Shown: positions 49,560 to 64,000 of the stretch, one piece after another
How positions within the stretch are numbered: position 1 is the stretch's first letter
Layout of the letters: each line of letters starts with the position of its first letter
NCBI GenBank assembly: GCA_041583775.1
Contig: JBFHFF010000004.1
Span: 66,428 to 130,427, forward strand
Direction of reading: 5' to 3'
Length of the DNA: 64,000 nt
From: Candidatus Moraniibacteriota bacterium
Lineage (GTDB): Bacteria > Patescibacteriota > Minisyncoccia > Moranbacterales > DUUL01
Made by a program: the position numbers and the translations under genes
The notes under the pieces: generated by a model
The model's input: only the letters and a program-made list of their open reading frames with translations
Told to the model about the DNA's origin: nothing
The model's database searches: none

Positions 49560-50158
49560 TTATTTCTCAATCACAATAAAATCCCCTTCTTCTAGCGCAT
49601 GAATGGGAAGTGATTTGTCTCCATATTCCTCCAACTCTTTTTTTGCATTTTCCCAATCAATTGGTCCTCTTGGGTCATTATTGCCATAGGTTCCATTGAA
49701 ATGAGGAATAAACTTAATTGGCAGAATTCTCAAACCCTCCAAACAGTCTCTCCAATCACAAGTCCATGAAAAAGTGGTTAGAATACTCGAACCAGCAGAG
49801 CTCGTCGCCACGACTTTTCCTTCAAAAATCTTTTCTAAATCAAATTGATCAAACCAAAATCGCAACACAAATAGTCATCCCCTCCTTGGATAATAATAAT
49901 ATCGTTTTTTTCTGCTTGTTTTTCGAATGTTACTGGAAATGCTAAATCAAAGACTAAGCTATCTGCTTTTCCTGTCAGAGAAGCAAATCTTTCACTATAA
50001 GCTTCAAACCTCGTCTCCCAGCTTTCTCGAGGCTGTGCAAAAAAACAATAGAGAATTCTAATTTCCCCTTCAAAACCAACAAGGATTTCATTCAAAAAAG
50101 CCAACTCCTTCTCGGGATATTTTTTAGCGCCACCCGAATTTAAGATATATTTTGTCAT
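49560..50158 (-). pseudogene. S51 (peptidase E / cyanophycinase-like) peptidase gene split by a single frameshift
   Basis: Upstream ORF ends ...IIIQGGDDYLCCDFGLINLI*; the +1 frame continues LRFWFDQFDLEKIFEGKVVATSSAGS (the S51 SAG nucleophile region) from a GTG. Confidence 0.55.
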
Positions 50159-50210
50159 TTGTATTATAACTATAAATTATAGATGAATTTATTTTAACAA
50201 GGTTATATAG

Positions 50211-50250
50211 AAAAACAAAAAATCCATCGCATATGCGAGGGATTTTTTTA
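50211..50250. terminator. bidirectional intrinsic terminator at the edge of repeat copy 1
   Basis: A-run, atccatcgcatatgcgagggat imperfect palindrome, T7. Confidence 0.55.
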
Positions 50251-50463
50251 TGTGGACCCTAGTAACTTTTCTTGGAACACCTTCTTAAATACCATTGTTG
50301 AGTGGCAACCTACCATCCAAAGGATTAAACAAGGCTTTGTTTAATCGCTTATATAAAGAATTCTGTGCTATATAACATATACACAATAGGATAATGGAAC
50401 ATCTATACGTACAAGGCATTAAAATATGAAGAGATTTCAATAAATAGAAGGTGGTATTTTGAA
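50222..50463. repeat. copy 1 of a ~245-bp diverged direct repeat (att-like element)
   Basis: About 88% identical to 51831..52075 by manual alignment; starts with tatgtggaccctag, which matches the tRNA-Ala 3' end. Confidence 0.8.
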
Positions 50464-50531
50464 AAAAGCGAATGTTCAGGGGGCATCCAAAAAACAATCT
50501 TTATTTAGATCATTTTAAAGGACGCGCACTT

Positions 50532-51101
50532 CTATAAGCCATTTCTTACAAAAGAAAACAGCTCATCTACTGTCTTCTTTTCTATGAACTTACCATACGC
50601 TCCGTACTTATTATTGAATTCTACGAAAAGTTCTTTATAGTTTTTAGAAAAATCTGGAGAAGTTAAATCAGGCCCTTGATCTAAATTTTGAAACATAAAT
50701 TTTCTCATTCTCACAAGACCAGTATATTGCTTCTTTTCATTCTCATTAAAAAGAGTATCAATTAAATAGATTTCATAAGCAACATAAAAAGTAGCTAGAT
50801 TGCAAACGACTTGGTCTGAATTTAAAATATTCAAACCTTTTTTAAAAATCTCGTCCTCTTCTTCGATTAATCTTCTTTTTATGTCATCATCTTCAATTCC
50901 TTCTAAATCTTTTTCAAAATCATATGTTAAGTTAGGGATTGCCCAATTTAAAGCTCGTGCTAGCAGTTGCAACCCAAATTCATCATTCTCTAATTTCTCT
51001 TCTTCTATAAATTTATCAGCGACTCCCATAACTATAGCATCGTGAATGAGATTATTCGCTTTTAAGGCATTTTTAAGCCTATTTTTCTTTAGCCAAAACA
51101 T
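50532..51101 (-). CDS. hypothetical protein (189 aa)
   Basis: ORF between the two repeat copies; no motif I recognise. Confidence 0.5.
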   Translation of the reverse strand: MFWLKKNRLKNALKANNLIHDAIVMGVADKFIEEEKLENDEFGLQLLARALNWAIPNLTYDFEKDLEGIEDDDIKRRLIEEEDEIFKKGLNILNSDQVVCNLATFYVAYEIYLIDTLFNENEKKQYTGLVRMRKFMFQNLDQGPDLTSPDFSKNYKELFVEFNNKYGAYGKFIEKKTVDELFSFVRNGL

Positions 51102-51274
51102 ACTTTTAGTTATTACTGCTTAATATTTTCACCTTCATTTTTTCTCTTTTTCCAAAATTATTGTGAATTCTACATTTTTCCCGTATCTTTTATCTCAAAT
51201 TTACGAGAGGGTTCAAAGCAGGGGCCATTGAACCCACTATAAAACAAAACACCAGACGTTCATTTTTCGATTCC

Positions 51275-51583
51275 CTATCTTAGATGATTTATAGAATCCT
51301 CTATTTCATTAAGCATACTCCTAGTTTCGAAGTCATTATAATCTTTTTTATCTTGTATGGACTTCAACTTATCAGTCAATTCAAAATTTTCATTCAAACT
51401 TTTGATAAGATTGTTCTTTTGAAAGACTTTACTATGATAATACGCCACCAATCCCAACATCCCATAATATGGCAAAGCAACCGCCCAAACAGAGTCAAAT
51501 TCAACAACTGCAAAATAAATCAAAACGGGAACAACAAAAAGAACAACTAAAAAGAATGAATTCCATAAATTCCCTTTTGACAT
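51275..51583 (-). CDS. small two-TM membrane protein with a charged C-terminal tail (holin-like topology)
   Basis: Two hydrophobic helices followed by a K/D/E-rich tail. Confidence 0.5.
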   Translation of the reverse strand: MSKGNLWNSFFLVVLFVVPVLIYFAVVEFDSVWAVALPYYGMLGLVAYYHSKVFQKNNLIKSLNENFELTDKLKSIQDKKDYNDFETRSMLNEIEDSINHLR

Positions 51584-51830
51584 AATAAATCAATTTAACA
51601 ATTAAATAATTAATTCACAAGTTCAACTGCTTCTGCCTTAAACCCTTAAACACTCCATCTCCTTAACATCACCCTCATCTGCCACGTAGCAACGTTTATT
51701 CTATATCAACCCAAAACTCGCTACATTTAAAGTTTACCACCTAAGACTAAATAAGAAAACCTCAGTAAAGCAATATTTTTTCCAATACCCCCTTGCATTC
51801 AAATCCACAACAAACTATTCGTAAACAAAA

Positions 51831-52075
51831 GAATCCCTCGCTGATGCGAAAGATTCCTTTTTGTGTGGACCATAAAGACTTTTATTGTAACACCTTTTTA
51901 AATACCATTATTGAGTGGCAACCTACTGTCAAAAGGGTTAAACAAAGCTTTATTTAATAGCTTATATAAAGAATTCTGTGCTATATAACATACACGCAAT
52001 AAGATAATGGAACATTTATACGTATAATGCGTTAAAATATGAAGAGATTTCAATAAATAGAAGGTGGTATATTGA
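51831..52075. repeat. copy 2 of the ~245-bp direct repeat, with an adjacent terminator hairpin at 51831..51863
   Basis: Manual alignment to copy 1; gaatc...gattc hairpin plus T-run; tgtggaccataaag is a degenerate copy of the tRNA-Ala 3' end. Confidence 0.8.
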
Positions 52076-52235
52076 ACGATGTCCGAACTTTTTTTATTGA
52101 AAAGGAGAAATGTACCGACTCTTTTGCTGTGGCAAATTTAGCTTATTAAAGATATTTAGTTATTTTTGAATATGCCTCATACTCTCATTGCTAGTAAAAA
52201 GCTTGATGAAAGAAGGGCATATCAAAAAATGAAGG

Positions 52236-53204
52236 TTAGTAAGAAAAACTTTCAAAACTTTTTATATCATTTCTTAAATTAGTTTTTCTTGTGATAGCTC
52301 CGTCACTTGCTCTTTCAATAATATTTCCTACAGAAAACTTTCCTAGTTTATTTTTTGTGTAAAGGTTTTTTGCAAAATACAACTCTGCTTCTGGACTCCT
52401 ACCAAAATTATTCGCATTTATAATATGTGTCTCGCAATAAATGATAGCGCTTACTTCTTTAAGCTGATTATTGCAAAAATAATTTGTTGGTATTCGAACT
52501 TTTCTAGCATCTTTTTCAATTTCTATATGTTCCCTAAGCTCATAACCCATCCCATCTGAGGAGCCTCCTCTCATCGGGAATACATCGTTTCCCCTCCCAT
52601 AAACTGTTGCTTCTATTGCACGGCCTCTAAATAGAGTTTCGGTATTATTTCCATTAATAGCGATTAAAAATGGTTCACATTCACTACATACATTACCCAA
52701 ATATTTTTCCCTATACTTTTTGTATTTCTTTGTCAGGGCATTGCTTATCCTTGCTATTCGCGGATCAAGAGCTTTGTAAATATCGCCACTTTTTGGGCTG
52801 TCATCAACTTCCTTATTTTTTCCAGGTGTAGTTATAATAGCTTCAATCCAAATATTTCTTCCATTCACTCTTACCTGTATATCAGGTCCCTTTCCATTGT
52901 TTGGAACCAATTCATAGCCATTATCCATAAGAACTGTTGCTAAATACATTTGCCAAGAAAATGCGTTAAATCCTCTGTTCTTTCTCGAGCGTAGATTCTT
53001 GAGAAAGTTTGGCTCGGCATATTTTTCATATCTCCCCCATAAAGACTCAAGCCATTTTTTCGTCTCTTCCCTACCCTTTCCACAACAAGTAATTATATAA
53101 GTAGAATCAAGACTTGGATTGTCCTTAATGCATTTTTTCAGCTCATCATCAGATGTAATCTGAGCAAAATCGTGAATAAATATTTTTTCGTGTCTACTTT
53201 TCAT
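52236..53204 (-). CDS. hypothetical protein (322 aa), possibly with a PD-(D/E)xK-like nuclease core
   Basis: GPDIQVRVNGRNIWIEAI resembles a PD...E motif, but the Lys is not evident; last gene of a three-gene operon; its start overlaps the upstream stop (ATGA). Confidence 0.5.
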   Translation of the reverse strand: MKSRHEKIFIHDFAQITSDDELKKCIKDNPSLDSTYIITCCGKGREETKKWLESLWGRYEKYAEPNFLKNLRSRKNRGFNAFSWQMYLATVLMDNGYELVPNNGKGPDIQVRVNGRNIWIEAIITTPGKNKEVDDSPKSGDIYKALDPRIARISNALTKKYKKYREKYLGNVCSECEPFLIAINGNNTETLFRGRAIEATVYGRGNDVFPMRGGSSDGMGYELREHIEIEKDARKVRIPTNYFCNNQLKEVSAIIYCETHIINANNFGRSPEAELYFAKNLYTKNKLGKFSVGNIIERASDGAITRKTNLRNDIKSFESFSY

Positions 53205-53581
53205 TGTTTTTTATTAATATTAGCAATAAATTCCTCCAAGACATCTAGCACGGATAAAAATTCTCTTACTCTGCTTAGCTTGTTTATATTCTTCTTGTAT
53301 TCTAATTCATATCTAGCGAGTATAACTCTGTACTCGAAGATATCACTTTCCGAAGGAAATGCAGAAGGAAACATTCTGTAAACGAATTTTAGTAATCTTT
53401 CATTTTCTTCTATTCCCATTTTATGCTTATTCTCATATTCTTTTTCAACAGAATTTTCTTCCCAACCAACAGTCATTCTCCCCATTCCTCTAAAAAAATT
53501 TTTAAAATTTATAAGCTCATTAATTTTATTTTCAGAACTTTCGAAATAAGGGAAAAAAGGAATGTAATCATACCTGACCAA
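53201..53581 (-). CDS. hypothetical protein (126 aa; alternative start at 53485)
   Basis: The long form overlaps the upstream gene by 73 nt; the ATGA overlap with the downstream gene implies translational coupling. Confidence 0.5.
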   Translation of the reverse strand: MVRYDYIPFFPYFESSENKINELINFKNFFRGMGRMTVGWEENSVEKEYENKHKMGIEENERLLKFVYRMFPSAFPSESDIFEYRVILARYELEYKKNINKLSRVREFLSVLDVLEEFIANINKKQ

Positions 53582-54756
53582 GAAATCGGTTCCGTATCTG
53601 AGAACAAGCCATAGAATATTTTACTTAATTTTGGATCATATCCTACATTTCCTGAAATATTGTCCGATATTTTCTGCTCGGACCAAAAAATTACTTCTCT
53701 TAAGGAAACAAATGGTATTCTTCTCTTAGACTCCAAATTTTTAGCTTTTATTTTCCATTCCTTTGGATATGCTTTCCAAAACATCCACTCACTACTTATC
53801 TTATCTGAATTTGAAAACAAAATAGAGAGAAAAGAAATGAAAAAATTTTCAATATATTCAATATCATCAGAGTGTTTATCAAGATGAATTTTTACCAACC
53901 GCAAATATCGTCCATAACTTTTATCAAGAGATTGGATTTCTATATATTCCAGTACGGGATAAATTTCATAATCAAATGGAAACCATTTTTCGCTTTCCCC
54001 ATACCTTTCGGCTTTATAATACCATTCAAGTATTTCTTCTAAAGGAGACTTTTTTCCTGAATATATCAAGAAATCCTTATCTCTGTTCTCAATATTTCTA
54101 GAAAAATTGCCAAGTAAACTATTCAGAAGAGGTGTACCCTCTCTTTTATCAATCAAAATATTTATATTTTTTGAAAATATCTCAAAAAATTCCAACTCGC
54201 TATTTCTGTCATTTTCTTTAACTTTCCATACCGAAGTCCAAGCAGAAACATATTCTCTATCCTCTCTTATTTTTTTCAGAAATCCGTACCTATGATAATA
54301 TGGATCTTTTATCCAAATAATAAAATCGAGAATTATTTTAATTAATATACCTATTCCAACTAGCCAAATTACAAGTAATACATTTCTCATAACAAAACCA
54401 CTACCAAACCAAAAAAATGATGGCAAATATGACAACAAAAGAGTTATCAATATCAACCTGACATCAAATACTCTGTTTATAATTACTATCAAATCTAATT
54501 CTGAATAGTTTATATTTTCATTGTTTCTCTTAGTTCTAAAATAATCAGACAGCACCGCTATGGCCAAAGGAATCAATATTGTAAAGAGGGCTATGTTCAC
54601 ATTATGAAAATAATTTCCTAATTCCATAACTTGATTAGCAGTGTTGATACTTAAATATAAAAAAATAAACAAGAATATCACTTCTAAAATAAAAAATATC
54701 ACTTCTTTTTGGGAAAGTTTTTTTTGAAATGCTTTTCTCAACATTTTGTTTAACAT
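53509..54756 (-). CDS. hypothetical membrane protein (415 aa; 4 N-terminal TM helices plus a ~270-aa cytoplasmic domain)
   Basis: Hydrophobic N-terminus; no motif I recognise. Confidence 0.55.
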   Translation of the reverse strand: MLNKMLRKAFQKKLSQKEVIFFILEVIFLFIFLYLSINTANQVMELGNYFHNVNIALFTILIPLAIAVLSDYFRTKRNNENINYSELDLIVIINRVFDVRLILITLLLSYLPSFFWFGSGFVMRNVLLVIWLVGIGILIKIILDFIIWIKDPYYHRYGFLKKIREDREYVSAWTSVWKVKENDRNSELEFFEIFSKNINILIDKREGTPLLNSLLGNFSRNIENRDKDFLIYSGKKSPLEEILEWYYKAERYGESEKWFPFDYEIYPVLEYIEIQSLDKSYGRYLRLVKIHLDKHSDDIEYIENFFISFLSILFSNSDKISSEWMFWKAYPKEWKIKAKNLESKRRIPFVSLREVIFWSEQKISDNISGNVGYDPKLSKIFYGLFSDTEPISWSGMITFLFSLISKVLKIKLMSL

Positions 54757-55199
54757 AACAAATATTTCTTAATTTAGTTAGGATATTTATTTTAAACAGT
54801 TTTCCATAATAACTGAATCTAGGGGGAAAATCAATAATTTATATACAAAAAATACTTGCTAATAAACTTTTAAAAATACGAAAGATATGGTGTGTGGTGT
54901 TAGAATATTTTATTTTATAATTCCAGATTCAATTTACTTGCAGTTATTTTAAGAATCCTTCTTTCTCTGTTTCGAATTATTTCTTTGTCTCTTATTTTCT
55001 CTTTGATATTTTCATATCGTGTGGGATGAAAATACATCGATTAGTCCTCAATTTTTCAGCGCCTACTCGTCTTAAGGAATATTGCAACACAACATCAGGG
55101 TTTCCTGAGTGCCAACCTAAGGCACGCTTAATTACGTTAAAGCCATCTAAATCTTTTCTTATATTAAAACTTTTAATTAGGGACCCACCTCCTTGATGA

Positions 55200-55682
55200 T
55201 GCATAAATATTAACTTTCCAGATACCATAGAAAAATGGAATGCTACTGCAAGGGAGTTAGCACTAAAAGAAAAAGAAGTTGAAAATTACATCGACCTGCT
55301 GGCAAAAACCGCCAGTGATGTTGTTAGAAAGAAATATGAGCTTAGAGTCGAAGCCCTTGAGGAAGAGATTTCGGCATTAAAAAAACAGCCCTCGGTTGCT
55401 AAGCACCTGAACTGTGAAGACGCTATTTCAGAAGTATTGCATTTTCTTGGAACACCTGCTGATTATTGGCAAAAAACCAATCTGGAAGGCAAATTTATGG
55501 TACACAACCTTATATTCACAGAGAATCCAATCTTTGACTTGCAAAATGGATTTGGAACACCTAAAACTTCCCTTCCCTTCGCAATAAAAGACGCCATTCA
55601 CAATGACGTCTCTTCTATGGTGGACCCTAGGGGATTCGAACTCCTGACCTCCTCAGTGCAAATGAGGCGCTCTACCAACTGA
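55200..55682 (+). pseudogene. start-less remnant of a larger gene, tentatively a recombinase C-terminal coiled-coil tail, reading into tRNA-Ala
   Basis: Open frame begins right after a TGA at 55197-55199 with no ATG; heptad-like ALKEKEVENYIDLL...ELRVEALEEEISALKK; runs antisense across the tRNA-Ala 3' end. Confidence 0.3.
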
Positions 55683-55693
55683 GCTAAGGGCCC
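55618..55693 (-). tRNA. tRNA-Ala (TGC) with encoded CCA
   Basis: Cloverleaf by eye; anticodon loop TTTGCAC; G3-U70 alanine identity pair; 3' ...AGGGTCC-A-CCA. Confidence 0.85.
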
Positions 55694-55858
55694 ATATTAA
55701 ACTAATTTTAAATTTCTAATTTTTAAGTTTGAATGAATTTTTTAATTAATCAATTTCAAATTTAAAAACTAAAACTTACCTGGTTTTGCTATTCTTCATT
55801 AATAAATTAGAATTTGATTCGAAATTCACAATTCTTAATTCAAAATTATTTGAAAACG

Positions 55859-55935
55859 CTGTGGGCAATCCAGGAATTGAACCTGGGACCTCGTCATTAT
55901 CAGTGACGCGCTCTAACCATCTGAGCTAATCGCCC
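55859..55935 (-). tRNA. tRNA-Ile (GAT)
   Basis: Cloverleaf by eye; anticodon loop CTGATAA. Confidence 0.8.
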
Positions 55936-56248
55936 TTTATTTTTTTCAAAAATTTTCGTCACGATTAAATCACAACAGAAGTAATTATAACAAAAAAAAT
56001 AATATTGTCCAGTGTTTGAATAGAAAAACTCCAGAATATTGTTTTTAAGCTTTTATATAGCGTTTTTTGAATCTCAATAAACAAACTTTTTTCAACACAA
56101 AGGACAACAACAAATTCAAATCTCTCCCCTATTGCCAATTTAAGAATATTGTGTTAATCTAGGTTTTGTCTAAGAAAAAGGCACCCTAAAGCCAAGAAAT
56201 GGCCTTATTATTATTGTGCAGAATTTAAAATAATTATATTATTGAAAT

Positions 56249-56572
56249 ATGAAAAAAGGCATCCACCCAAAATACATCGAGGAAGCAACAATTAAATGTT
56301 CTTGCGGAAATGTTATCACAACTGGTTCGACATTAGAAAAAAAAGACATTGAAATTTGTAGCGCTTGTCATCCTTTTTATACCGGAAAGAAGAAACTCGT
56401 AGACTCAACCGGACGAGTTGATAGATTCAAACAAAGAATGGAAAAATTCTCTGCAATTGAAAAGGAAAAAGAAGAAGCAAAAAAGGCTGCTGCAAAGAAA
56501 GCGAAATCAACAACAAAGAAAGATGTTAAAAAAGTAGAAGCAAAAACTACTAAAGAAGCAGCAAAAAAATAA
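56249..56572 (+). CDS. rpmE: 50S ribosomal protein L31 with Lys/Ala-rich C-terminal extension
   Basis: MKKGIHPKY...CSCG...[10 protein letters not shown] zinc-ribbon L31 core. Confidence 0.9.
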
Positions 56573-56588
56573 TATTCGGTTGAAAAGT

Positions 56589-56623
56589 AAAAAACAGACC
56601 AAAGTTGACTTGGTCTGTTTTTT
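56589..56623. terminator. bidirectional terminator after rpmE
   Basis: acagacca...tggtctgt stem flanked by A6 and T6. Confidence 0.6.
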
Positions 56624-56653
56624 ACTTTGCTATTTTTTATTTTTCAATTAAAT

Positions 56654-57112
56654 TCATTTTTCACTCACTTTCATTGCTTGAAGGATTTTAATACAAAATA
56701 AATTAAAAGCTATTGCAAAAGGAATCCCCGCTAGACTCCAAGTGGTTAATTCGTTTAACTTTACAACCTCATTAACAGAGAAAAGGAAGCCCAAGAAAAA
56801 ACCAGAGAACATATATAAATTTAATAAACCAAGCTTGATTTCATCCTTTCTATATCGAAAAAAGAAAAACATAGGAATAAAGATTAATCCATAAAAAAAT
56901 CCTAGTATTATTCTTGAAAAGTCATTTGCATAAAATGCTCCCACAAAAGAAAATGTTACAACAAAAGAAAATGTAAAAACAAAAAGATAGTGTTTATTGA
57001 AGAATTGAGATTTAGACATATAGCTTGAAAATATTATTATTTTTATTAATTTTAACATACACAAATATAAATCCAAATTGATCCCCTTTGCATCAAAAAA
57101 CATAACTAACAA
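56654..57112 (-). CDS. hypothetical polytopic membrane protein
   Basis: Hydrophobic 152 aa. Confidence 0.5.
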   Translation of the reverse strand: MLVMFFDAKGINLDLYLCMLKLIKIIIFSSYMSKSQFFNKHYLFVFTFSFVVTFSFVGAFYANDFSRIILGFFYGLIFIPMFFFFRYRKDEIKLGLLNLYMFSGFFLGFLFSVNEVVKLNELTTWSLAGIPFAIAFNLFCIKILQAMKVSEK

Positions 57113-57135
57113 TTAGAATTTTTTATACATAAACA

Positions 57136-57573
57136 TTAGAGTGTTTTCTTGTAATAAAGTTTTATACACGAATTCAATTCTCCAATTAAATTCATATCAA
57201 GCGCTTTTATGGGATTAACCCATCTAAATTCTTTATGCTCTTTTTTGCTAATCGAAATTTCCGCTTTCCTTTTTAATTCAATATGAAAAATGTGATATAC
57301 AAAATCATATCCTGGATATTTCACAAAAATCTTTTTAAAATACACCAACTCTTTTTCTGATAATTCCTCCCCCGTCTCCTCCCTTGCCTCCCTTATCATT
57401 GCCTCTACTAAACTTTCACCCTCATTGACTTTTCCAGCGGGAACTCCCCAAGTATCACCCTCTGGTTTATAATCCTGTCGATGAAGTAAAAGTATTTCTC
57501 CAGCATATTCAAAAAAACAACTAACTATTTCAAATCGAGAATCGAAATTTTCTGGCCTTCTATGATAAATCAT
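57136..57573 (-). CDS. NUDIX hydrolase
   Basis: Nudix box GKVNEGESLVEAMIREAREETGEE. Confidence 0.8.
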   Translation of the reverse strand: MIYHRRPENFDSRFEIVSCFFEYAGEILLLHRQDYKPEGDTWGVPAGKVNEGESLVEAMIREAREETGEELSEKELVYFKKIFVKYPGYDFVYHIFHIELKRKAEISISKKEHKEFRWVNPIKALDMNLIGELNSCIKLYYKKTL

Positions 57574-57609
57574 GTTTCAATAAATTAAAACTCAAAAATC
57601 AATACTAAA

Positions 57610-58803
57610 TTAACTGGCTAGCTCTTTTTTATTAATAAAAAAGAACGATACTGTTAAGATAACAAATAAGAAAATGCCTAAAACTATATACCCCAATTCA
57701 TAAGAATAATTCATAATAAAACCAATTGTAAAGGGCACTATAAATTGAAAAAGTAATTCAATTTGATTTTTAATTGATATTGTAGTCGCCTTATAATTTT
57801 TATCAGAAATATGATTATTCAAGATATGACTCTCGATTAACTGAGCTCTTCCCCACATATAACCAATGACGATTATTATTATACTCGCAATTAAATATGG
57901 ATTATCAAAATAAGCTACAATAAAAAAATAAAAGGGGAAGAAAAATAATTCAAAGATCAACAACTGTCTCATTGTAAAATATTCTTCGATTAAGTATGCA
58001 TATCTTCCAACAAAAAACCAAACGAGTCTTGATAGCCCAAAAACAAAACCGACCCAAGCAATTGGATATCCCAATGTCTCCAAATAAACATACCTAAAAA
58101 CAGATTCCGCTATAACAAAGCCTGAAATAGCACTCACAAAAACAGCAAAAGGCAAAAAGTTTAATTTTCTTGTATCTTTAAATATTCTTGTTATAGATTT
58201 AATTTTATCCTTTGAAATTTTGATTTTATTCTTTGGATCAACAAAACTAAAAACAACTATTAGACCCAAAATATCAAGGAATAAACTTACATAAAAAGGC
58301 CAAATAATATCAATTTTCGTTAGAAATGGTAACAATATAATCAAAATAACACTAGCTAGAGAAACATTTCCTCTAATTCTGCCCATTAATTTTGAGTATT
58401 CTTTCCCTCTATTCAGCTTCTCTAAGGTTTCTTGCATAAACGCAGAATTAGTTCCTGAGGTGAAAGCAAATGAAACACTCATGCAAATAGAACCTAGGGC
58501 AAACCCATAAAAGTTTTGAACAAAAATAAAAGAAGATGTCGAGAATAGCATTAAAACTTTAGACAAAACTAATGTCTTTTTGTGCCCAAATCTATCAGCA
58601 AAGTAACCTGAAGGAATTTCGAAAAGAAAAGCAACAAGATTTCCAATACCTGAAAACAAACCGAGCATATTTGCAGTAGTATTGGGCAAAGTCAAAAAAT
58701 AAATCGACAGAATTGAGATATAAGCCCTTCTGCCCGTAAATATATAAACAAACATTTTCCAGATGTTGTTTTCTAAATTCCGCACCAAGATTTTATTTTC
58801 CAT
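57610..58803 (-). CDS. MFS transporter
   Basis: 12-TM topology, GYFADRFGHKKTL MFS motif. Confidence 0.75.
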   Translation of the reverse strand: MENKILVRNLENNIWKMFVYIFTGRRAYISILSIYFLTLPNTTANMLGLFSGIGNLVAFLFEIPSGYFADRFGHKKTLVLSKVLMLFSTSSFIFVQNFYGFALGSICMSVSFAFTSGTNSAFMQETLEKLNRGKEYSKLMGRIRGNVSLASVILIILLPFLTKIDIIWPFYVSLFLDILGLIVVFSFVDPKNKIKISKDKIKSITRIFKDTRKLNFLPFAVFVSAISGFVIAESVFRYVYLETLGYPIAWVGFVFGLSRLVWFFVGRYAYLIEEYFTMRQLLIFELFFFPFYFFIVAYFDNPYLIASIIIIVIGYMWGRAQLIESHILNNHISDKNYKATTISIKNQIELLFQFIVPFTIGFIMNYSYELGYIVLGIFLFVILTVSFFFINKKELAS

Positions 58804-58824
58804 AAATTCTTTTCATGTCCTTAT

Positions 58825-59535
58825 TTACAATCTCTTTTTTATATACTCCAATTCCTTCCTCTCTTCTCCAAATTTATCAAAAGTACTTTCTATAATAATC
58901 GGAATGTCTTTTTTTAGCAATGCGCTGATAATTTGATCTTTTTTTGTTTTAAACAAAGGATAATGCAAAAAATTTTCATCAAACCCGCTTATGTGATACT
59001 CAACGACTCTGTCTTCAAATTCTTTTTGAAAATCTATTGCCAATTGTAAAGATTTGTCATTCACAAAACAATGTTGCAAATCAAGTGTCAATCCAAAATC
59101 ATATCTCTCCAAAATAGACCTCATATCTTCTACTGTTCTGCCTGATTTTTTCCGATTATCCATATTCTCAATTGAAATTGGCAAATCTAAATATTCGCTA
59201 AATACATCCCAATCAATAATTGTATCTGTATGAAAAACCAAATTATTGATTTTATATTTTTCAACCAATGTCTTGATTTTATCCAATATTCTCTTAGAGT
59301 CTTGATTTTTTGCATAAACAAAACTTGGTGCATGCAAAGAGATGAAATCGAAAAAATGCAAATCGACATCCCTACTACAGATAAGGCTGTCGATTGCTTT
59401 TTCGTCTATACAATGTAATTCAATTGCATTTGCTTCCCCCTCGGCATAAAAACGAGTCATCGAATCAAAAGATATTCGTTCACTATGACTATCCTCTGTT
59501 CTATAAAACACACCATTACTAAAACCTATTGTCAT
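58825..59535 (-). CDS. xylose-isomerase-like TIM-barrel protein (sugar phosphate isomerase/epimerase or AP-endonuclease-2 family)
   Basis: LHAP...ISIENMD...LDLQHCF pattern typical of this fold; weak. Confidence 0.4.
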   Translation of the reverse strand: MTIGFSNGVFYRTEDSHSERISFDSMTRFYAEGEANAIELHCIDEKAIDSLICSRDVDLHFFDFISLHAPSFVYAKNQDSKRILDKIKTLVEKYKINNLVFHTDTIIDWDVFSEYLDLPISIENMDNRKKSGRTVEDMRSILERYDFGLTLDLQHCFVNDKSLQLAIDFQKEFEDRVVEYHISGFDENFLHYPLFKTKKDQIISALLKKDIPIIIESTFDKFGEERKELEYIKKRL

Positions 59536-59565
59536 TTTTCATAAATCAATCCTTTAGCATCATAA

Positions 59566-60834
59566 CTAAACACTTTCTTTCCCACAATTTGGGCAATGTG
59601 CTAGATATCTAATCTTCTTTCCTCCACAATTCTTACAAACCTCTTTTAACCTAAGTCCACAATCTGGACAAAAATTATGTTTGTAATTTATAGGAAAAGA
59701 GCATCCTGGACATTTTTTGTCTTTCAATCTTCTGACCGCGACTTTTTTTGTACTAAAAACTCTTTTTTGAATATAAAAAACAATTCCACCAAAAATTCCG
59801 ATTATCAAGAAAGTGGCACCATAATAAATTACATACCTCAAAAATGGCACTGCCAAGAAAAATCTAAACACTCTTGCAAGCCACTCTTTTGGCAAAATGT
59901 CATATAAAAAGACGACCATTACCTGCAAAAATAAAAACGCAAAAGCAGTGGTGATTGCTGTTAAAATGATTGTATAGGGACTGTTTCTTTTTTTGAATTT
60001 CAAATAATAGAAAACTGAAATTGCAAATAATGGCAAAATAAAAACCAGTGTCAAGAGAAATGCTTTGAATTTATACCACGCTTTTTTGTTTTGATAATAT
60101 TCCTGGGCTTCTTTGTAGCTTTGTTTCAAATCTTCCGTTGGTAATGCTAACCCCGCAATGATTTTGGATTTTTCGGCTTCAAGATTTTTTATCTGCTTTC
60201 TTAAAACTTCCCCGTTAGTTCTCTCAATTGAAATCTTATCTCTTATTTGTTGTATATTCATAATAGCCTCCTCTTCTGCCATTTTCTCTTGCAAACTGAG
60301 GTCATATTCCCCGTTCAATTTTTGAAACTCTAATTCTGCAGCATTAAGTTGTTTTTTGCTAAGTGCTATCTCTTTATTCAATGAAACAACCTCTTGAAGT
60401 TGAGGTTCCATTTCATTATATTTGACATCTATATCGAATCTCCTATCAACAGAATTGAAACCAACATATTCAGAACAATTTAAATGATTTGCATTAACAA
60501 TGTTTTCAGCAGATGACAGCGCACATTGAGATGGAGCAACTGGTTTCTCTAGAATATTTCTAAGATCTGCAAAAATAGTTTCCCCAACACCTATAACAAA
60601 AATGACCATAAAAAACAAAAGAACATATCCAAGTTTTGATGTCTTTTTTTCACTTATTTCCTCATATTCTTCATTAGAATCTCTATTTGCTAGTTCTAAT
60701 AGATCCATTCCTTGCTGTTCTTTTTCCTCATATGCAATTTCTTCGACCACCGGTTGAATTTTTTCTTTTTGTATAACTTCTTTTTGCGTAGCCTCAGCCA
60801 TCTGTTCTTTTTGCTTTTTTTCCTCGAGATCCAT
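59566..60834 (-). CDS. membrane protein with acidic coiled-coil N-terminus, three TM segments and a C-terminal double zinc-ribbon
   Basis: CPGCSFP...CPDCG...CKNCG...CPNCG; start set at MDLEEKK. Confidence 0.55.
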   Translation of the reverse strand: MDLEEKKQKEQMAEATQKEVIQKEKIQPVVEEIAYEEKEQQGMDLLELANRDSNEEYEEISEKKTSKLGYVLLFFMVIFVIGVGETIFADLRNILEKPVAPSQCALSSAENIVNANHLNCSEYVGFNSVDRRFDIDVKYNEMEPQLQEVVSLNKEIALSKKQLNAAELEFQKLNGEYDLSLQEKMAEEEAIMNIQQIRDKISIERTNGEVLRKQIKNLEAEKSKIIAGLALPTEDLKQSYKEAQEYYQNKKAWYKFKAFLLTLVFILPLFAISVFYYLKFKKRNSPYTIILTAITTAFAFLFLQVMVVFLYDILPKEWLARVFRFFLAVPFLRYVIYYGATFLIIGIFGGIVFYIQKRVFSTKKVAVRRLKDKKCPGCSFPINYKHNFCPDCGLRLKEVCKNCGGKKIRYLAHCPNCGKESV

Positions 60835-60968
60835 TTTTTTTGTTTTTAAAATTTTTAAGTAAAAAACTCTAGTTATGTTTATTATAATCCAAAAAAAGGT
60901 ATTTTTCAAAACCAACTTAAACCCATTTATAAAACTAATTTTGTTTATATTTTTAGACTATAAAAACT

Positions 60969-61355
60969 CTACTTTTTCTTTAATTCATCTCTAATCTCCC
61001 TCAAAAGCAAAACATCCTCAGGTATCTCAACTGGTTTTACTTCTTCCTTTTTTTGCAATTTACCTAATTGCTTGATTACAATGAAAATAGCAAAAGCTAT
61101 AATCACAAAATCAACCACTGAATTAATAAACAAACCATAATTCATTGTAACCGCCTCCGTCGTTGCCGTTGCTTTCTTGAGAGTAATTGCTAGATTTGAA
61201 AAATCAACACCACCCAAAAGAATCCCGATTGGAGGCATAATAATATCCGAAACAAAAGAACTAACAATCTTTCCAAAAGCAGCACCAATAATAATACCGA
61301 CTGCTAGATCGATAACATTGCCTTTTATGGCAAATTTCTTAAATTCTTGTAACAT
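60969..61355 (-). CDS. mscL: large-conductance mechanosensitive channel
   Basis: [37 protein letters not shown]. Confidence 0.9.
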
Positions 61356-61470
61356 AATTTTATGCTTACTAATTATTACTTATTATACACTATCGACCAT
61401 AAATAACAAATATTCTCGCCTCTATTCTAGGTACATTTGAATGGTTAATCGCCAAATTATTAAAAGCTTA

Positions 61471-62556
61471 CTAGTTAAATAAGTTTATATATACCCCATA
61501 CCCTTCTTCTTTCAATTCTTCCTTTGGTATAAACTTGAGTGCTGCTGAATTTATACAATAGCGCTCTCCTTTTGGCGCTGGCCCATCATTGAAAACATGT
61601 CCCAAATGAGAACCAGATTTAGCACCAAGAATTTCCGTACGCTTCACAAAGAATTTTCTATCTTCTTTTTCAACAACAGCATCCCCTGAAATTGGCTTTG
61701 TAAAACTTGGCCAACCTGTGCCAGATTCATATTTATCCTTTGAAGAAAATAACGGCTCCCCAGAAACAATATCGACATAGATTCCATCTCGCTTTTCGTC
61801 CCAATATTCATTTTCAAAAGCTCTTTCCGTTGCACCCTCCTGCGTAACCTTGTATTGTAATGGGGTTAGTTTGTCTAAATCAAATCCTGTTGTCTTCTTT
61901 AGATACTCCTTAACTTCCAGAGCATCGTTTTGCCAACTAGCTTCTAGAAACTTATCCCTTCCAGAACCTCTTCTGTAATATTTATATCTAAGGCCATTTC
62001 TGTCATAATAGTCCTGATGATATTCTTCGGCATTATAGAATTCACCCAGTGGCAGAATATTTGTAGCTATCTCTTTTTTAAAAATCTTAGCATCTGCAAG
62101 TTTTTGTTTTTCTTCTTCGGCGACTTGCTTCTCTTTATCAGTCACATAAAATATAGCTGAGGTATACTGATGTCCTCTATCGCCGAAAGAACCACTTGGA
62201 TCCGTAGGATCAACATGACGAAAAAAATATTGCACCAAGGTGCGATACTCTACTTTTTTTTCATCATAATACACCTGGACTGCCTCACGATGACCAGTTT
62301 TCCCAGCACTTACTTGGTCATATTTTGGATTCTCTATTTCACCTCCTGTATAGCCAGATATAACCTCTTCGACACCTGGGACTTTTTCAAAATCAGCCTC
62401 TACGCACCAAAAACATCCACCAGCAAAAGTAGCTATTTTCAAACCTTCTAAGTTTTTCGTTGGTTTTGATTTCCCTATTAACATAATTGTGATAGTTGCA
62501 ACTGCAACTGTTATTAATAATACTAACGATATCTTTAATTTTTTTTTAATTTCCAT
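61471..62556 (-). CDS. msrAB: membrane-anchored bifunctional methionine sulfoxide reductase MsrA-MsrB
   Basis: GCFWC MsrA active site; C-terminal [10 protein letters not shown]...RYCINS MsrB; N-terminal TM helix. Confidence 0.85.
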
Positions 62557-63089
62557 ATATTTAAAGCTAAAATATTAAAACTTCTTTCCAAATCTTTTCA
62601 CTAGCAAATATTATTGAACAAATAAATTATATTTTATCCAAAAAACCAACCTCATAAGCACTGAGATTTTCAATCCCCTTAATATACCCTTTCTCAAAAG
62701 AAGAATTCGAAAGAATGTCCACCAAAAGAGCACTTTCTGAAATATTTTTTATTATTTCTTCCATCGTCTTTGTGCTATTGAATTAGAATTTCAAAAGTTT
62801 ATACAGATGATTGATTGAATTTATCCTCTCTTTAAATTTGAATAAATTATCTACAAATTTTTATAAACCTAACTCAACAGTACAGACACACAAAGTTCGA
62901 AGTTTCACAATGTGTATAAATTATAACAAGTTTTTGCCATTTTGACAAGCAGAAAGCAAGAAAAATAGCCGTTTTATAACCAATAAACATTGACATTTAA
63001 GCATAAGTGTTGTATATGTAGAGATAGTTACTTGAAATTAGAAAAAACTGATTATTCAGTCTTCAATAAAAAATCTTGGGAGAGAAATT

Positions 63090-64000
63090 ATGGGAGATAT
63101 ACTAGCTTTAGGCAAAATGGAGCCCAATAAATTCGATAAAATAAAAAAACTTCAATTAGAGGGACTTAATCGAGAAAAGTTTCTCGAGGATGTCAGAGAC
63201 TTTATCTCAAAAATACCTAGTGGTGCTGATAACGCAAGAATTTTCTCTCCAACCGTAAGGAGGAAAATTATAACAGAAGGTGTTGTATCAGAAGAACTCA
63301 TCCAATTCATTTCACAAAGGAAAAGTGGTAGAGAACTTCTGACTAATTATGTGCCAGAAAATCCACCAAATAAGAATTACATCGCAAATCTAGAAACTAA
63401 GGTTGTGGTGAAAAAGGAATTGGCTGTCAAAATACTTGCTTCCGTGCGCAAAGTTACGGGGAAAAATAATTCAGAATTAGGGAAGCTTCTTGGATTATCA
63501 AGTAGAGACTTGAGGGACCTTTCTTCTGGCATCAATAAAATTTACCTCATTCAGTTAGAGTTTTTAGCTAGATTGTTTGGTTTTGATCAAGTTGTTTTTT
63601 TCAAAGAAATTCAACTCTCAATAGAAGACTGTTGTGAAGTTCAAACTAAGAATAGTTTTGAGTCAGAAAATCGACACTCTACGGCTGTTTCAACTGAAGC
63701 AGAAACTGTTCCAAGTGACGGTTTCAATGAACCACCTCCTAATGTAAGGAACGGAAGGGAATTAGGTCTGAAAATCGAAGAACTATATGTTCCGAAAGAT
63801 CAAGCTTATGAAGTTCTTTTGAAAATACAATCATTAACTAAAAAAACCCAAAGAGAATTAACTGCCATACTCAGATTATCCAAGGGTACACTCGAGGGAC
63901 TCCGCAAAAAAAGAAACAGGCTGCGCATTTCTCAGCTTGAATATCTCGCAAGGTTTTTCGAATACGACCGAGAAGATTTCTTTAAAAGAATCGGCTTTAC
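63090..64000 (+). CDS. hypothetical protein with two tandem HTH-like modules (partial; runs off the window)
   Basis: ATG after GGGAGAG; internal repeat ELGKLLGLSSRDLRDLSSG...QLEFLARLFGFD versus ELTAILRLSKGTLEGLRKKRNRLRISQLEYLARFFEYD. Confidence 0.5.
   Translation, partial: MGDILALGKMEPNKFDKIKKLQLEGLNREKFLEDVRDFISKIPSGADNARIFSPTVRRKIITEGVVSEELIQFISQRKSGRELLTNYVPENPPNKNYIANLETKVVVKKELAVKILASVRKVTGKNNSELGKLLGLSSRDLRDLSSGINKIYLIQLEFLARLFGFDQVVFFKEIQLSIEDCCEVQTKNSFESENRHSTAVSTEAETVPSDGFNEPPPNVRNGRELGLKIEELYVPKDQAYEVLLKIQSLTKKTQRELTAILRLSKGTLEGLRKKRNRLRISQLEYLARFFEYDREDFFKRIGF

What the first reader, a model, noticed from the sequence alone, without database searches (positions are those of the whole stretch)
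54757..55700. Possible start-less gene remnant (weakly recombinase-like) abutting tRNA-Ala
The frame opening at 55200, right after a TGA, has no ATG. Tentatively, it encodes about 140 aa containing a long heptad coiled coil (LALKEKEVENYIDLL...ELRVEALEEEISALKKQ), which is consistent with, but does not demonstrate, the C-terminal tail of a large serine recombinase. It runs antisense through the 3' end of tRNA-Ala. The 78-aa minus-strand ORF at 54992-55228 also overlaps it. Read this way it would be an integrase gene degraded after integration at the tRNA; it could equally be a spurious open frame.
Basis: partly seen in the sequence, partly recalled or inferred. Interest (0 to 1): 0.55.

Follow-up and report, generated by a model that had tools for sequence, protein, structure and literature searches.

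The report
Serine integrase remnant beside tRNA-Ala
The start-less open frame is the dead last quarter of a large serine integrase gene that marks the end of a decayed mobile element inserted at tRNA-Ala. Its intact relatives in candidate-phyla bacteria show an unusual design in which the integrase gene itself runs across the recombination site.

Summary
Confirmed. Window 55200-55682 (+) is open, has no usable start, and reads antisense into tRNA-Ala(UGC) at 55618-55693 (-). Positions 55233-55664 match residues ~375-520 of ~520-aa large serine recombinases (LSRs): family HMM E 7e-39, and 63% identity to the closest intact gene. No catalytic, recombinase or zinc-ribbon part survives anywhere in the window, so this is a pseudogene stub at the attR end of a degraded integrative element.

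Relatives are common in Patescibacteria/CPR genomes. Of 50 LSR 3' ends examined, 39 are intact. 35 abut the 3' end of an RNA gene: tRNA-Ala 26, tmRNA 8, tRNA-Leu 1. In 34 of those the ORF stops inside the RNA gene.

In the closest integrated relatives, the far end of the 4.6-7.4 kb element carries a short GTGGAC core. After it comes an in-frame ~29-codon piece that is contiguous with the LSR ORF in a contig lacking any tRNA. attP therefore lies inside the integrase ORF, and integration swaps its C-terminal tail.

The window holds two such far-end junctions (50252, 51865). They delimit degraded units whose cargo includes a PD-T7-1/5-like defence candidate. The stub is ordinary; the family design is a new variant.

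The parts
55200..55682 (+). Whole open frame: 160 codons plus a TGA stop. There is no start codon in the first 79 codons.
55233..55664 (+). The part homologous to the C-terminal ~145 residues (profile positions 378-523 of 528) of CPR large serine recombinases. It comprises the end of the rising coiled-coil helix, the tip, the descending helix and the C-terminal region (FLGTPA..W, IFTENP, GFGTPK.SLPF motifs).
   Evidence: hmmsearch iE 7e-39. tblastn E 3e-56, 63% identity to L048. BLASTP 5e-30 to P0034.
55618..55693 (-). tRNA-Ala(UGC), intact, with a G3:U70 pair. Its 3' end (TGGTGGAC on the + strand) is the attR junction.
   Evidence: ARAGORN. Rfam 68 bits. Sequence read.
55620..55625 (.). GTGGAC, the common core shared by attR here and by the attL-type junctions. 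It corresponds to tRNA positions 69-74, and the inferred crossover lies within it.
   Evidence: Comparison of attL, attR and attP sequences.
55626..55682 (+). Tail of the frame encoded by the antisense of the tRNA (PRGFELLTSSVQMRRSTN plus stop). It replaces the native tail.
   Evidence: The same kind of tail occurs in relatives.
55861..55935 (-). tRNA-Ile(GAU), upstream of tRNA-Ala on the same strand. A promoter-like site lies at 56011-55984.
54992..55228 (-). 78-aa ORF of unknown function. Its start codon lies where the recombinase homology ends, and it is the first gene of a minus-strand run (78, 415, 126, 322 aa).
   Evidence: No family match.
53509..54756 (-). 415-aa predicted membrane protein; cargo of unknown function.
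52236..53204 (-). 322-aa cargo protein similar to the candidate anti-phage proteins PD-T7-5 and PD-T7-1, and to phrog_8571.
51865..51957 (+). attL-type junction 2 (repeat D1b): GTGGAC core followed by an in-frame 29-codon piece (VDHKDFYCNTFLNTIIEWQPTVKRVKQSFI*) homologous to the native LSR tail. Inferred left end of the unit that ends at tRNA-Ala (about 3.75 kb).
   Evidence: (iE 3.5e-5).
51831..51864 (-). Hairpin plus U-run directly after the core on the minus strand, resembling the terminator of a displaced tRNA 3' stub.
   Evidence: -19.2 kcal/mol, z -5.0.
50252..50344 (+). attL-type junction 1 (repeat D1a): GTGGACCCTAG (11 nt identical to the tRNA-Ala 3' end) followed by VDPSNFSWNTFLNTIVEWQPTIQRIKQGFV*.
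   Evidence: iE 2.3e-8; E 5e-5 to the contiguous L050 protein.
50221..50251 (-). Hairpin plus U-run next to junction 1, terminator-like.
   Evidence: -14.8 kcal/mol, z -4.9.
50532..51583 (-). Two ORFs (189 and 102 aa) between the two junctions, with no family match. They are either cargo of an older unit or chromosomal DNA.

Best explanation
The frame is a pseudogene: the last ~145 codons of a ~520-codon large serine recombinase (serine integrase) gene, sitting at the right end (attR) of a degraded small integrative element.

How it arose, as inferred from intact relatives. A circular element of about 5 kb carried an LSR gene whose ORF runs across its own attP site. The LSR recombined attP with an attB centred on GTGGAC in the 3' acceptor strand of tRNA-Ala. 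Integration put the LSR gene against the tRNA, so its reading frame now continues into the antisense of the tRNA. It also put the ~29 codons of the native LSR tail at the other end of the element (attL). Later, a deletion or replacement removed LSR codons 1 to ~373, which hold the catalytic Ser domain, the recombinase domain, the zinc ribbon and most of the rising coiled-coil helix. That grounded the element. What remains, about 51871-55619, is a cargo run of four minus-strand ORFs, including a PD-T7-1/5-like defence candidate, plus the stub.

Shown: the homology, the absence of the N-terminal part, the tRNA overlap, the far-end tail-coding pieces in the window and in relatives, and one contiguous LSR+tail ORF on a contig without a tRNA. 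Inferred: the crossover position, the order of events, and that the stub has no function.
For: - **Homology.** Family HMM iE 7e-39 over 55233-55664. tblastn hits run from 3e-56 (63% identity) to 2e-41 against seven closest intact genes.
- **Relatives are true LSRs.** Full-length relatives of 500-560 aa carry PF00239 + PF07508 + PF13408, match CcrB/XisF-type models and match phrog_95.
- **No N-terminal remains in 64 kb**.
- **Recurrent target.** 50 LSR 3' ends in 48 related loci: 39 intact, and 35 abut tRNA-Ala (26), tmRNA (8) or tRNA-Leu (1). In 34 of the 35 the ORF stop lies 21-187 nt inside the RNA gene.
- **Same context with an intact gene.** L035 has an intact LSR next to tRNA-Ala(tgc) + tRNA-Ile(gat).
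- **Element ends in close relatives.** L009, L010, L051 and L053 have the GTGGAC core plus a tail-coding piece 4.6-7.4 kb upstream of the tRNA.
- **Contiguous form.** L050 has a 540-aa LSR+tail ORF and no tRNA on the contig; L057 is the tmRNA-type analogue.
- **Window junctions.** A tail HMM built without window sequences finds window 50252 (2.3e-8) and 51865 (3.5e-5).
- **Coding constraint on the tail.** Differences by codon position are 288/217/407.
- **Other stubs and decayed copies exist.** L040, L041, L042, L047 and L005/6/8/34.
Against: - Nothing shows when or how the 5' part was lost. The breakpoint (about 55229-55241) has no recognisable repeat or insertion-sequence end.
- Both attL-type junctions in the window carry a host-like terminator arm on their left. 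A simple tandem-integration history does not predict this.
- The 11-nt identity between 50252 and the tRNA end is by itself at chance level (expected about 0.8 in the window). The junction call rests on the protein-level match instead.
- No excised circle or empty attB of this particular element was found.
- The source organism is inferred, not identified.
Confidence: 0.9

Rival explanations
1. The frame is a chance open reading frame or an unrelated coiled-coil protein. The recombinase likeness would then come only from heptad composition.
For: The Pfam and NCBIfam scans of the fragment alone gave nothing but a weak KIF21A coiled-coil hit. The phrog_95 match of the fragment alone was weak, at E 0.0095.
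Against: The strongest conservation lies outside the coiled coil, in FLGTPADYW, IFTENP and GFGTPK.SLPF. The alignment to full-length LSRs is gap-free, with E down to 3e-56. The position next to tRNA-Ala is the same as for intact relatives.
Confidence: 0.01
2. The C-terminal fragment is kept on purpose as a small protein, started at TTG 55437 or at a non-canonical codon. It might, for example, bind incoming integrases of the family through the coiled coil or tail and block further integration at this tRNA.
For: Many database entries of the family are short C-terminal pieces of 76-245 aa next to tRNA or tmRNA. Stubs recur in several genomes: L040, L041, L042, L001.
Against: - There is no start codon before codon 80, and the TTG-started product would lack the whole coiled coil.
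- Stub lengths differ between loci (profile start 364 to 464), as expected for decay.
- Many short entries are cut by contig ends.
- Other copies carry frameshifts.
- No promoter-like site lies in front of the frame.
Confidence: 0.04
3. The gene is not dead but split. The N-terminal 373 codons would lie elsewhere in the genome, outside the window or across an inversion, and be rejoined by recombination as in developmentally regulated LSR systems.
For: LSRs of the XisF/SpoIVCA type take part in programmed rearrangements (established knowledge). XisF is among the best NCBIfam matches of the relatives.
Against: No N-terminal piece exists in 64 kb in any frame. The frame is preceded by two in-frame TGAs and by unrelated sequence that holds the start of an opposing ORF. 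Intact relatives have the gene in one piece at the same place.
Confidence: 0.03

Closest known systems
DsiB, the ssrA-specific serine integrase of Dehalococcoides genomic islands (McMurdie et al. 2011, PMC3146451)
   Same: It is a CcrB-like large serine recombinase of about 540 aa placed at the edge of small to medium islands. Those islands insert at the 3' end of tmRNA, restore the gene and pile up in tandem downstream of it. The CPR family also hits tmRNA in 8 of 35 cases and also matches CcrB models best.
   Different: DsiB islands leave a 20-bp direct repeat, with insertion in the T-loop. Here the shared core is only about 6-12 nt, in the acceptor 3' strand, and the main target is tRNA-Ala. 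The paper describes DsiB with a second small serine recombinase (DsiA); that was not looked for here. An integrase ORF crossing attP is not described in the passages of that paper I read. Direct sequence comparison with DsiB was not possible with these tools.
Phage large serine integrases (phiC31, Bxb1, A118/LI, SPbeta; PMC3783163, PMC5499577, PMC11722253)
   Same: Same domain order: Resolvase, Recombinase, zinc ribbon with an inserted coiled-coil hairpin. The att sites are short with a minimal common core, and the integrase gene sits next to attP.
   Different: From my own knowledge, the known examples mostly target protein-coding genes, keep attP outside the integrase ORF, and need a separate directionality factor for excision. 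The Islander paper (PMC4383910) states that serine integrases were not known to target tRNA genes. Here the targets are tRNA-Ala and tmRNA, and attP lies inside the ORF about 29 codons before its stop.
SSV1-type 'suicidal' tyrosine integrases of archaea (PMC8371274)
   Same: The recombination site lies inside the integrase's own gene and the target is a tRNA gene, so integration changes the gene product.
   Different: Those are tyrosine recombinases, reported as exclusive to Archaea, and their gene is cut into two inactive halves. Here the enzyme is a serine recombinase in bacteria. Only the last ~29 codons are exchanged, for about 20 codons read from the antisense of the tRNA, and all catalytic and DNA-binding domains stay in one piece.
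Tyrosine-integrase islands in tRNA/tmRNA genes (Islander-type; PMC4383910)
   Same: An island sits at the 3' end of a tDNA with the integrase gene next to the restored tDNA. A displaced 3' stub marks the far end, and decayed, grounded copies are common.
   Different: The enzyme family differs. The displaced stub is only about 6-12 nt rather than the longer tDNA fragment these tools rely on, so such islands would escape repeat-based island finders.

Membership tests
Large serine recombinase (serine integrase) | N-terminal Resolvase catalytic domain (PF00239) with the nucleophilic serine | tested here: not met
   Absent from the window in all six frames. Present in full-length relatives, E 1e-23 to 7e-31. 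The window copy is therefore a remnant, not a working member.
Large serine recombinase (serine integrase) | Recombinase domain (PF07508) and zinc ribbon (PF13408) after the catalytic domain | tested here: not met
   Absent in the window. Both domains are present in P0034 and P0159; the other relatives tested carry one of the two (PF07508 in P0042 and P0048, PF13408 in P0007).
Large serine recombinase (serine integrase) | Coiled-coil hairpin inserted after the zinc ribbon | tested here: met
   The AlphaFold model of P0007 shows a hairpin (H82-127, H134-159) with pLDDT of at least 90 over about residues 101-160. The window aligns from shortly before the tip through the descending helix. Foldseek against the PDB gave only generic helical hairpins.
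Large serine recombinase (serine integrase) | The fragment is collinear with the C-terminal end of proteins that meet all domain criteria | tested here: met
   Residues 374-516 of the L048 LSR at 63% identity, E 3e-56. Profile positions 378-523 of 528.
Large serine recombinase (serine integrase) | Short att sites with a minimal common core, and the element ends at the integrase gene | tested here: met
   The GTGGAC core is shared by attL and attR in L009, L010, L051, L053 and the window, and by attP in L050. No longer direct repeats were found.
Large serine recombinase (serine integrase) | Catalyses attP x attB recombination | not testable with these tools
   Needs an in vitro or in vivo assay with an intact relative.
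CcrB / DsiB-type cassette recombinases | Score above the NCBIfam CcrB equivalog cut-off (900 bits) | tested here: not met
   Intact relatives score 77-108 bits. They are related to CcrB but are not CcrB.
CcrB / DsiB-type cassette recombinases | Second small serine recombinase (CcrA/DsiA) encoded beside it | not tested
   Neighbouring genes of the intact relatives were listed only for L009, L010, L035 and L050 and were not scanned for this.
SSV1-type suicidal integrases | attP inside the integrase ORF | tested here: met
   Contiguous ORF across the core in L050 and L057. The tail piece lies at the far end of integrated copies.
SSV1-type suicidal integrases | Tyrosine recombinase; integration splits the gene into two inactive halves | tested here: not met
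   The domain set is that of a serine recombinase. Only about 29 terminal codons are exchanged, and 39 of 50 related LSR copies examined (most of them integrated next to an RNA gene) keep profile positions ~3-520 in one frame.

The most novel reading that the evidence does not exclude
In this CPR family the integrase ORF crosses attP. The free element therefore makes an LSR with a conserved ~29-aa native tail (F.WN.F...I..W.P..KRI.), while the integrated element makes the same enzyme with a ~20-aa tail read from the antisense of tRNA-Ala or tmRNA.

This tail swap could act as a built-in switch of direction or activity, with no separate directionality factor. It would be a bacterial, serine-recombinase counterpart of the archaeal 'suicidal' integrases. 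Targeting of the alanine-type acceptor end would explain why tRNA-Ala and tmRNA are both used.

The probability given is for the functional claim. The purely structural claim, attP inside the ORF with the tail exchanged on integration, I put at about 0.8.
Probability: 0.3. Interest if true: 0.75.

Novelty: new variant of a known kind. Interest (0 to 1): 0.5.

Why it matters
The stub itself matters only for annotation. It flags a grounded mini-island at tRNA-Ala whose cargo includes a candidate phage-defence gene, and it should be labelled a pseudogene.

The family behind it matters more, for three reasons.
- It adds a large clade of serine integrases that target tRNA-Ala and tmRNA. An earlier survey held that only tyrosine integrases target tDNA (PMC4383910); the Dehalococcoides tmRNA integrase DsiB (PMC3146451) is the one earlier exception found here.
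- Their islands leave only a 6-12 nt stub, so repeat-based island finders will miss them in CPR genomes.
- The attP-inside-ORF design gives a directly testable idea of how a serine integrase could change behaviour between the free and integrated states without a separate factor. It also offers compact (~520 aa) integrases with a defined, universally conserved target for engineering.

Tried and rejected
- **Family scans of the fragment alone.** Pfam, NCBIfam and PADLOC gave nothing useful.
- **PDB sequence search with a 3-sequence profile.** Only generic coiled coils.
- **Foldseek of the P0007 model.** Only generic helical hairpins. The model has mean pLDDT 66 and is good only in the coiled coil.
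- **Viral contig scan.** No relatives.
- **TGA recoding (code 4/25) as the cause of the missing start.** Rejected.
- **The 11 residues CININFPDTIE at the 5' end of the frame.** They resemble a catalytic-domain segment of P0034 (E 0.069), which hinted at an internal in-frame deletion. The family HMM and closer relatives give no support, and two TGAs precede the segment. Dropped.
- **A tail HMM built from heterogeneous non-tRNA tails of distant members.** It had no power and missed the window copies. The claim rests on the HMM from close relatives.
- **D1a versus D1b alone.** This comparison shows no coding constraint: by my own reading of the sequences, 2 of 13 differing codons are synonymous. 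That is expected for dead copies. Constraint appears only across elements.
- **Word-index search with reconstructed LSR+tail.** It gave one 59-aa hit only.
- **An early reading that the L035/L037/L042 clade stops just before the tRNA.** This was wrong. In frame, those ORFs also end inside the RNA gene.
- **Island cargo genes.** They have no homologues in the related loci.

Full report
**Observation.** Window 55200-55682 (+) is an open frame of 160 codons. It follows two in-frame TGAs (55194-55199) and ends at a TGA inside tRNA-Ala. ARAGORN and Rfam place tRNA-Ala(UGC) at 55618-55693 (-) and tRNA-Ile(GAU) at 55861-55935 (-). The frame has no start-type codon before TTG at 55437, and its in-frame ATGs are at 55497 and 55617. 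The 78-aa minus-strand ORF at 54992-55228 overlaps it by 29 nt. Table 11 fits the window, and reading through TGA does not extend the frame into anything recombinase-like.

**What the frame is.** Scans of the fragment alone were nearly silent, the best being phrog_95 integrase at E 0.0095. Homology searches changed that.
- A first search found two short proteins that also end in tRNA-antisense peptides. They lie next to tmRNA (L001, L002) and tRNA-Ala (L003).
- A profile search found 29 short relatives. One carries the recombinase zinc ribbon, and two are named site-specific recombinase by their source.
- An exhaustive profile search found 4163 proteins at E of 1e-3 or better, many of them 500-560 aa long with the match at their C-terminal end.
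- Those full-length proteins carry the Resolvase domain, together with the Recombinase and/or Zn_ribbon_recom domains. They match CcrB/CcrC/XisF models far below equivalog cut-offs and phrog_95 at 1e-56 to 1e-63.

A profile of six full-length members matches window 55233-55664 (profile positions 378-523 of 528) at iE 7e-39 and matches nothing else in 50000-55700. The closest intact genes give 56-63% identity, with E from 2e-41 to 3e-56, starting at 55242. tblastn with 32 full-length proteins finds no N-terminal part anywhere in the 64 kb. The window keeps the tip and the descending helix.

The frame is therefore the last ~145 codons of a large serine recombinase gene, without its catalytic, recombinase and zinc-ribbon domains. 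It is a pseudogene stub.

**Family context.** A scan of one genome per species returned 34 loci. All but one are labelled as Patescibacteria/CPR lineages or as unclassified bacteria: Moraniibacteriota, Berkelbacteria, Saccharibacteria and others. The exception, L039, is labelled archaeal. A metagenome scan added 14 loci.

Across these 48 loci I found 50 LSR 3' ends.
- 39 are intact in one frame.
- 35 abut the 3' end of an RNA gene on the opposite strand: tRNA-Ala(GGC) 13, tRNA-Ala(UGC) 11, tRNA-Ala(CGC) 2, tmRNA 8, tRNA-Leu 1.
- In 34 of those 35 the ORF's stop lies 21-187 nt inside the RNA gene.
- L035 is an intact copy in the same tRNA-Ala(UGC)/tRNA-Ile(GAU) setting as the window.
- Decayed copies also occur. 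There are frameshifted genes (L005/6/8/34 and L047) and stubs like the window's (L040, L041, two in L042).

By inference, the window's source is a CPR bacterium. The evidence is the family's distribution and the nearest relatives (61-63% identity) in a Moraniibacteriota MAG and unnamed MAGs. The organism itself was not identified.

**Element ends and how integration works.** In the closest intact relatives, L009 and L010, the sequence GGTGGAC occurs twice. One copy is at the tRNA-Ala 3' end, under the LSR's last codons. The other is 4.9 or 4.6 kb upstream, just beside tRNA-Ile. Right of the upstream copy, in frame with GTG GAC, run 29-30 codons:
- L009: VDKEQFPWNHLLITIMQWRPIVKRIRENFIS*
- L010: VDKEQFPWNHFLITINEWWPIVKRIKQNFV*

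L051 and L053 show the same arrangement, 6.0 and 7.4 kb from their tRNA-Ala. In contig L050, which has no tRNA, a 540-aa LSR ORF runs straight through TGGTGGACCC into such a tail (...LVDPDQKSWNSFFEIILGWEPVLRQISE...). L057 does the same with a tmRNA-type core.

Across eight tail pieces, differences fall 288/217/407 on codon positions 1/2/3, the pattern of a translated sequence. The conserved stretch of about 90 nt is also longer than the half-site I would expect (about 25 bp, from general knowledge of serine-integrase att sites).

The best reading is that attP lies inside the LSR ORF. The crossover falls within GTGGAC (tRNA positions 69-74). Integration moves the native tail to attL and leaves the enzyme with a tail read from the antisense of the tRNA. 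In the window that tail is VDPRGFELLTSSVQMRRSTN. The shared alanine-type acceptor end offers a reason why tRNA-Ala isoacceptors and tmRNA are both targets; this is inference.

The attL sites of the window, L051 and L053 read (T)GTGGAC, while attR sites read TGGTGGAC or GGGTGGAC (L009 and L010 attL read GGTGGAC). For the window, the native gene therefore probably ends ...ACA and the element supplies the full CCA.

**The island in the window.** The only long direct repeat near the finding is D1 (50245-50463 and 51858-52076, 89% identity). Each copy has the same layout.
- It starts with a stable minus-strand hairpin plus U-run (-14.8 and -19.2 kcal/mol, z about -4.9).
- GTGGAC follows. In D1a this is GTGGACCCTAG, 11 nt identical to the tRNA-Ala end.
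- A 29-codon open piece follows, ending at the same stop position as in L010: VDPSNFSWNTFLNTIVEWQPTIQRIKQGFV* (D1a) and VDHKDFYCNTFLNTIIEWQPTVKRVKQSFI* (D1b).

A tail HMM built only from L009, L010 and P0055 finds these two places at iE 2.3e-8 and 3.5e-5 in a six-frame search of about 0.5 Mb. The contiguous L050 protein hits 50252-50332 at E 5e-5. The 11-nt DNA identity alone would be chance; the protein-level match is not.

The window therefore holds two attL-type junctions (50252, 51865) and one attR (55620). The unit from 51871 to 55619 is 3.75 kb. Adding back the missing 1.1 kb of LSR gives 4.9 kb, the size of the L009 element.

Its cargo is a minus-strand run of four ORFs (78, 415, 126 and 322 aa) that starts exactly where the recombinase homology stops. 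The 322-aa protein matches the defence candidates PD-T7-5 (2.5e-18) and PD-T7-1 (5e-14), and phrog_8571. None of the cargo is shared with related loci.

The same sequence occurs at 100% identity in Logan contigs from three SRA runs. One of those contigs breaks 30 nt inside tRNA-Ala.

**Unresolved.** Both junctions carry a host-like terminator arm on their left. Plain tandem integration would instead put an LSR 3' end at the inner junction, as is seen in L042 and L040. Two hypotheses remain.
- Two paralogous tRNA-Ala loci were both hit, and the left one later lost its tRNA.
- There was an LSR-less mini-element whose P arm is a terminator. In L001, 157 nt with a terminator lie between two 23-nt tmRNA cores.

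I could not decide between them.

**Comparison with what is known.** The closest described system is the Dehalococcoides ssrA islands. They have the CcrB-like serine integrase DsiB, a 20-bp repeat and insertion in the T-loop (PMC3146451). The Islander paper states that serine integrases were not known to target tDNAs (PMC4383910). Literature searches for serine integrases in CPR, or with tRNA targets, found nothing on this family. Integrases that carry their site inside their own gene are described as exclusive to Archaea and are tyrosine recombinases (PMC8371274). Coiled-coil control of direction in serine integrases is established (PMC3783163, PMC5499577, listed). Whether the exchanged tail affects it here is unknown.

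**Verdict.** The stub is an ordinary decay product and has no likely function (confidence 0.9). The family it belongs to is a new variant of a known kind: CPR serine integrases that target the acceptor end of tRNA-Ala and tmRNA, with attP inside their own ORF. That design is well supported structurally (about 0.8) and untested functionally (about 0.3). Overall interest is 0.5.

Noticed in passing
window 52236-53204 (-): A 322-aa ORF matches the PADLOC candidates PD-T7-5 (E 2.5e-18) and PD-T7-1 (5e-14), and phrog_8571 (2.6e-23). It looks like anti-phage defence cargo of the degraded element.
   Followed up: partly
window 50213-50463 and 51826-52076: Both repeat copies have a host-like terminator hairpin left of the GTGGAC core and the tail-coding arm right of it. 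Simple tandem integration does not predict this inner junction. Two tRNA-Ala loci or an LSR-less mini-element are possible explanations.
   Followed up: partly
window 49560-50158 (-): Two overlapping ORFs of 107 and 102 aa. The second hits Peptidase_S51 just below its cut-off. This is probably a frameshifted dipeptidase-E-like gene at the border of the island.
   Followed up: partly
window 55984-56011 (-): The best sigma-70-like site of the region (TGGACA, 16-nt spacer, TG-TATAAT; 11 of 12 matches) lies just upstream of tRNA-Ile. It is likely the promoter of the tRNA-Ile/tRNA-Ala pair, which stands alone without rRNA genes in the window.
   Followed up: no
L043 (= window 55648-64000): A Logan contig identical to the window starts 30 nt inside tRNA-Ala. 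The assembly graph therefore branches at the tRNA's 3' arm in that sample. This fits strain variation at the att site, or simply a shared 3' arm among tRNAs.
   Followed up: no
L001 3319-3522 (also L002): A 23-nt tmRNA 3' end (TGGTGGACCCGAGGGGAGTTGAA) occurs twice, 181 nt apart. An LSR stub lies left of the first copy, and 157 nt with a terminator lie between the copies. It may be a mini-insertion or the collapsed remains of a second element.
   Followed up: partly
L005, L006, L008, L034: The same LSR gene with two frameshifts (three frames) lies next to tmRNA in a Saccharibacteria MAG and in contigs from three SRA runs. It is a stable pseudogene rather than an assembly error.
   Followed up: partly
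L042 1453-1593 and 6162-6372: Two LSR stubs lie 4.7 kb apart, each followed by ATTGTCTAAATGGTGGA, and the second is at tRNA-Ala(UGC)/tRNA-Ile(GAU). This is a tandem array of decayed elements in the same context as the window.
   Followed up: partly
L057 4571-6250 and 9106-10686: One 10.7-kb contig holds two LSR genes of the family. The first runs through a tmRNA-type core (TGGTGGAGGTGG) into a non-tRNA tail, and there is no RNA gene on the contig.
   Followed up: no
Proteins P0023, P0043, P0050, P0051, P0063, P0068 and others: In the other subfamily (KLQWFQFP motif) many members carry long non-tRNA tails ending in a conserved helix, FW..(I/V)..E(L/I)..L..IL. This may be the same attP-inside-ORF design with a longer tail.
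   Followed up: no
L039: A contig labelled Pacearchaeota archaeon carries a bacterial tmRNA and this LSR family. It is probably mis-binned.
   Followed up: no
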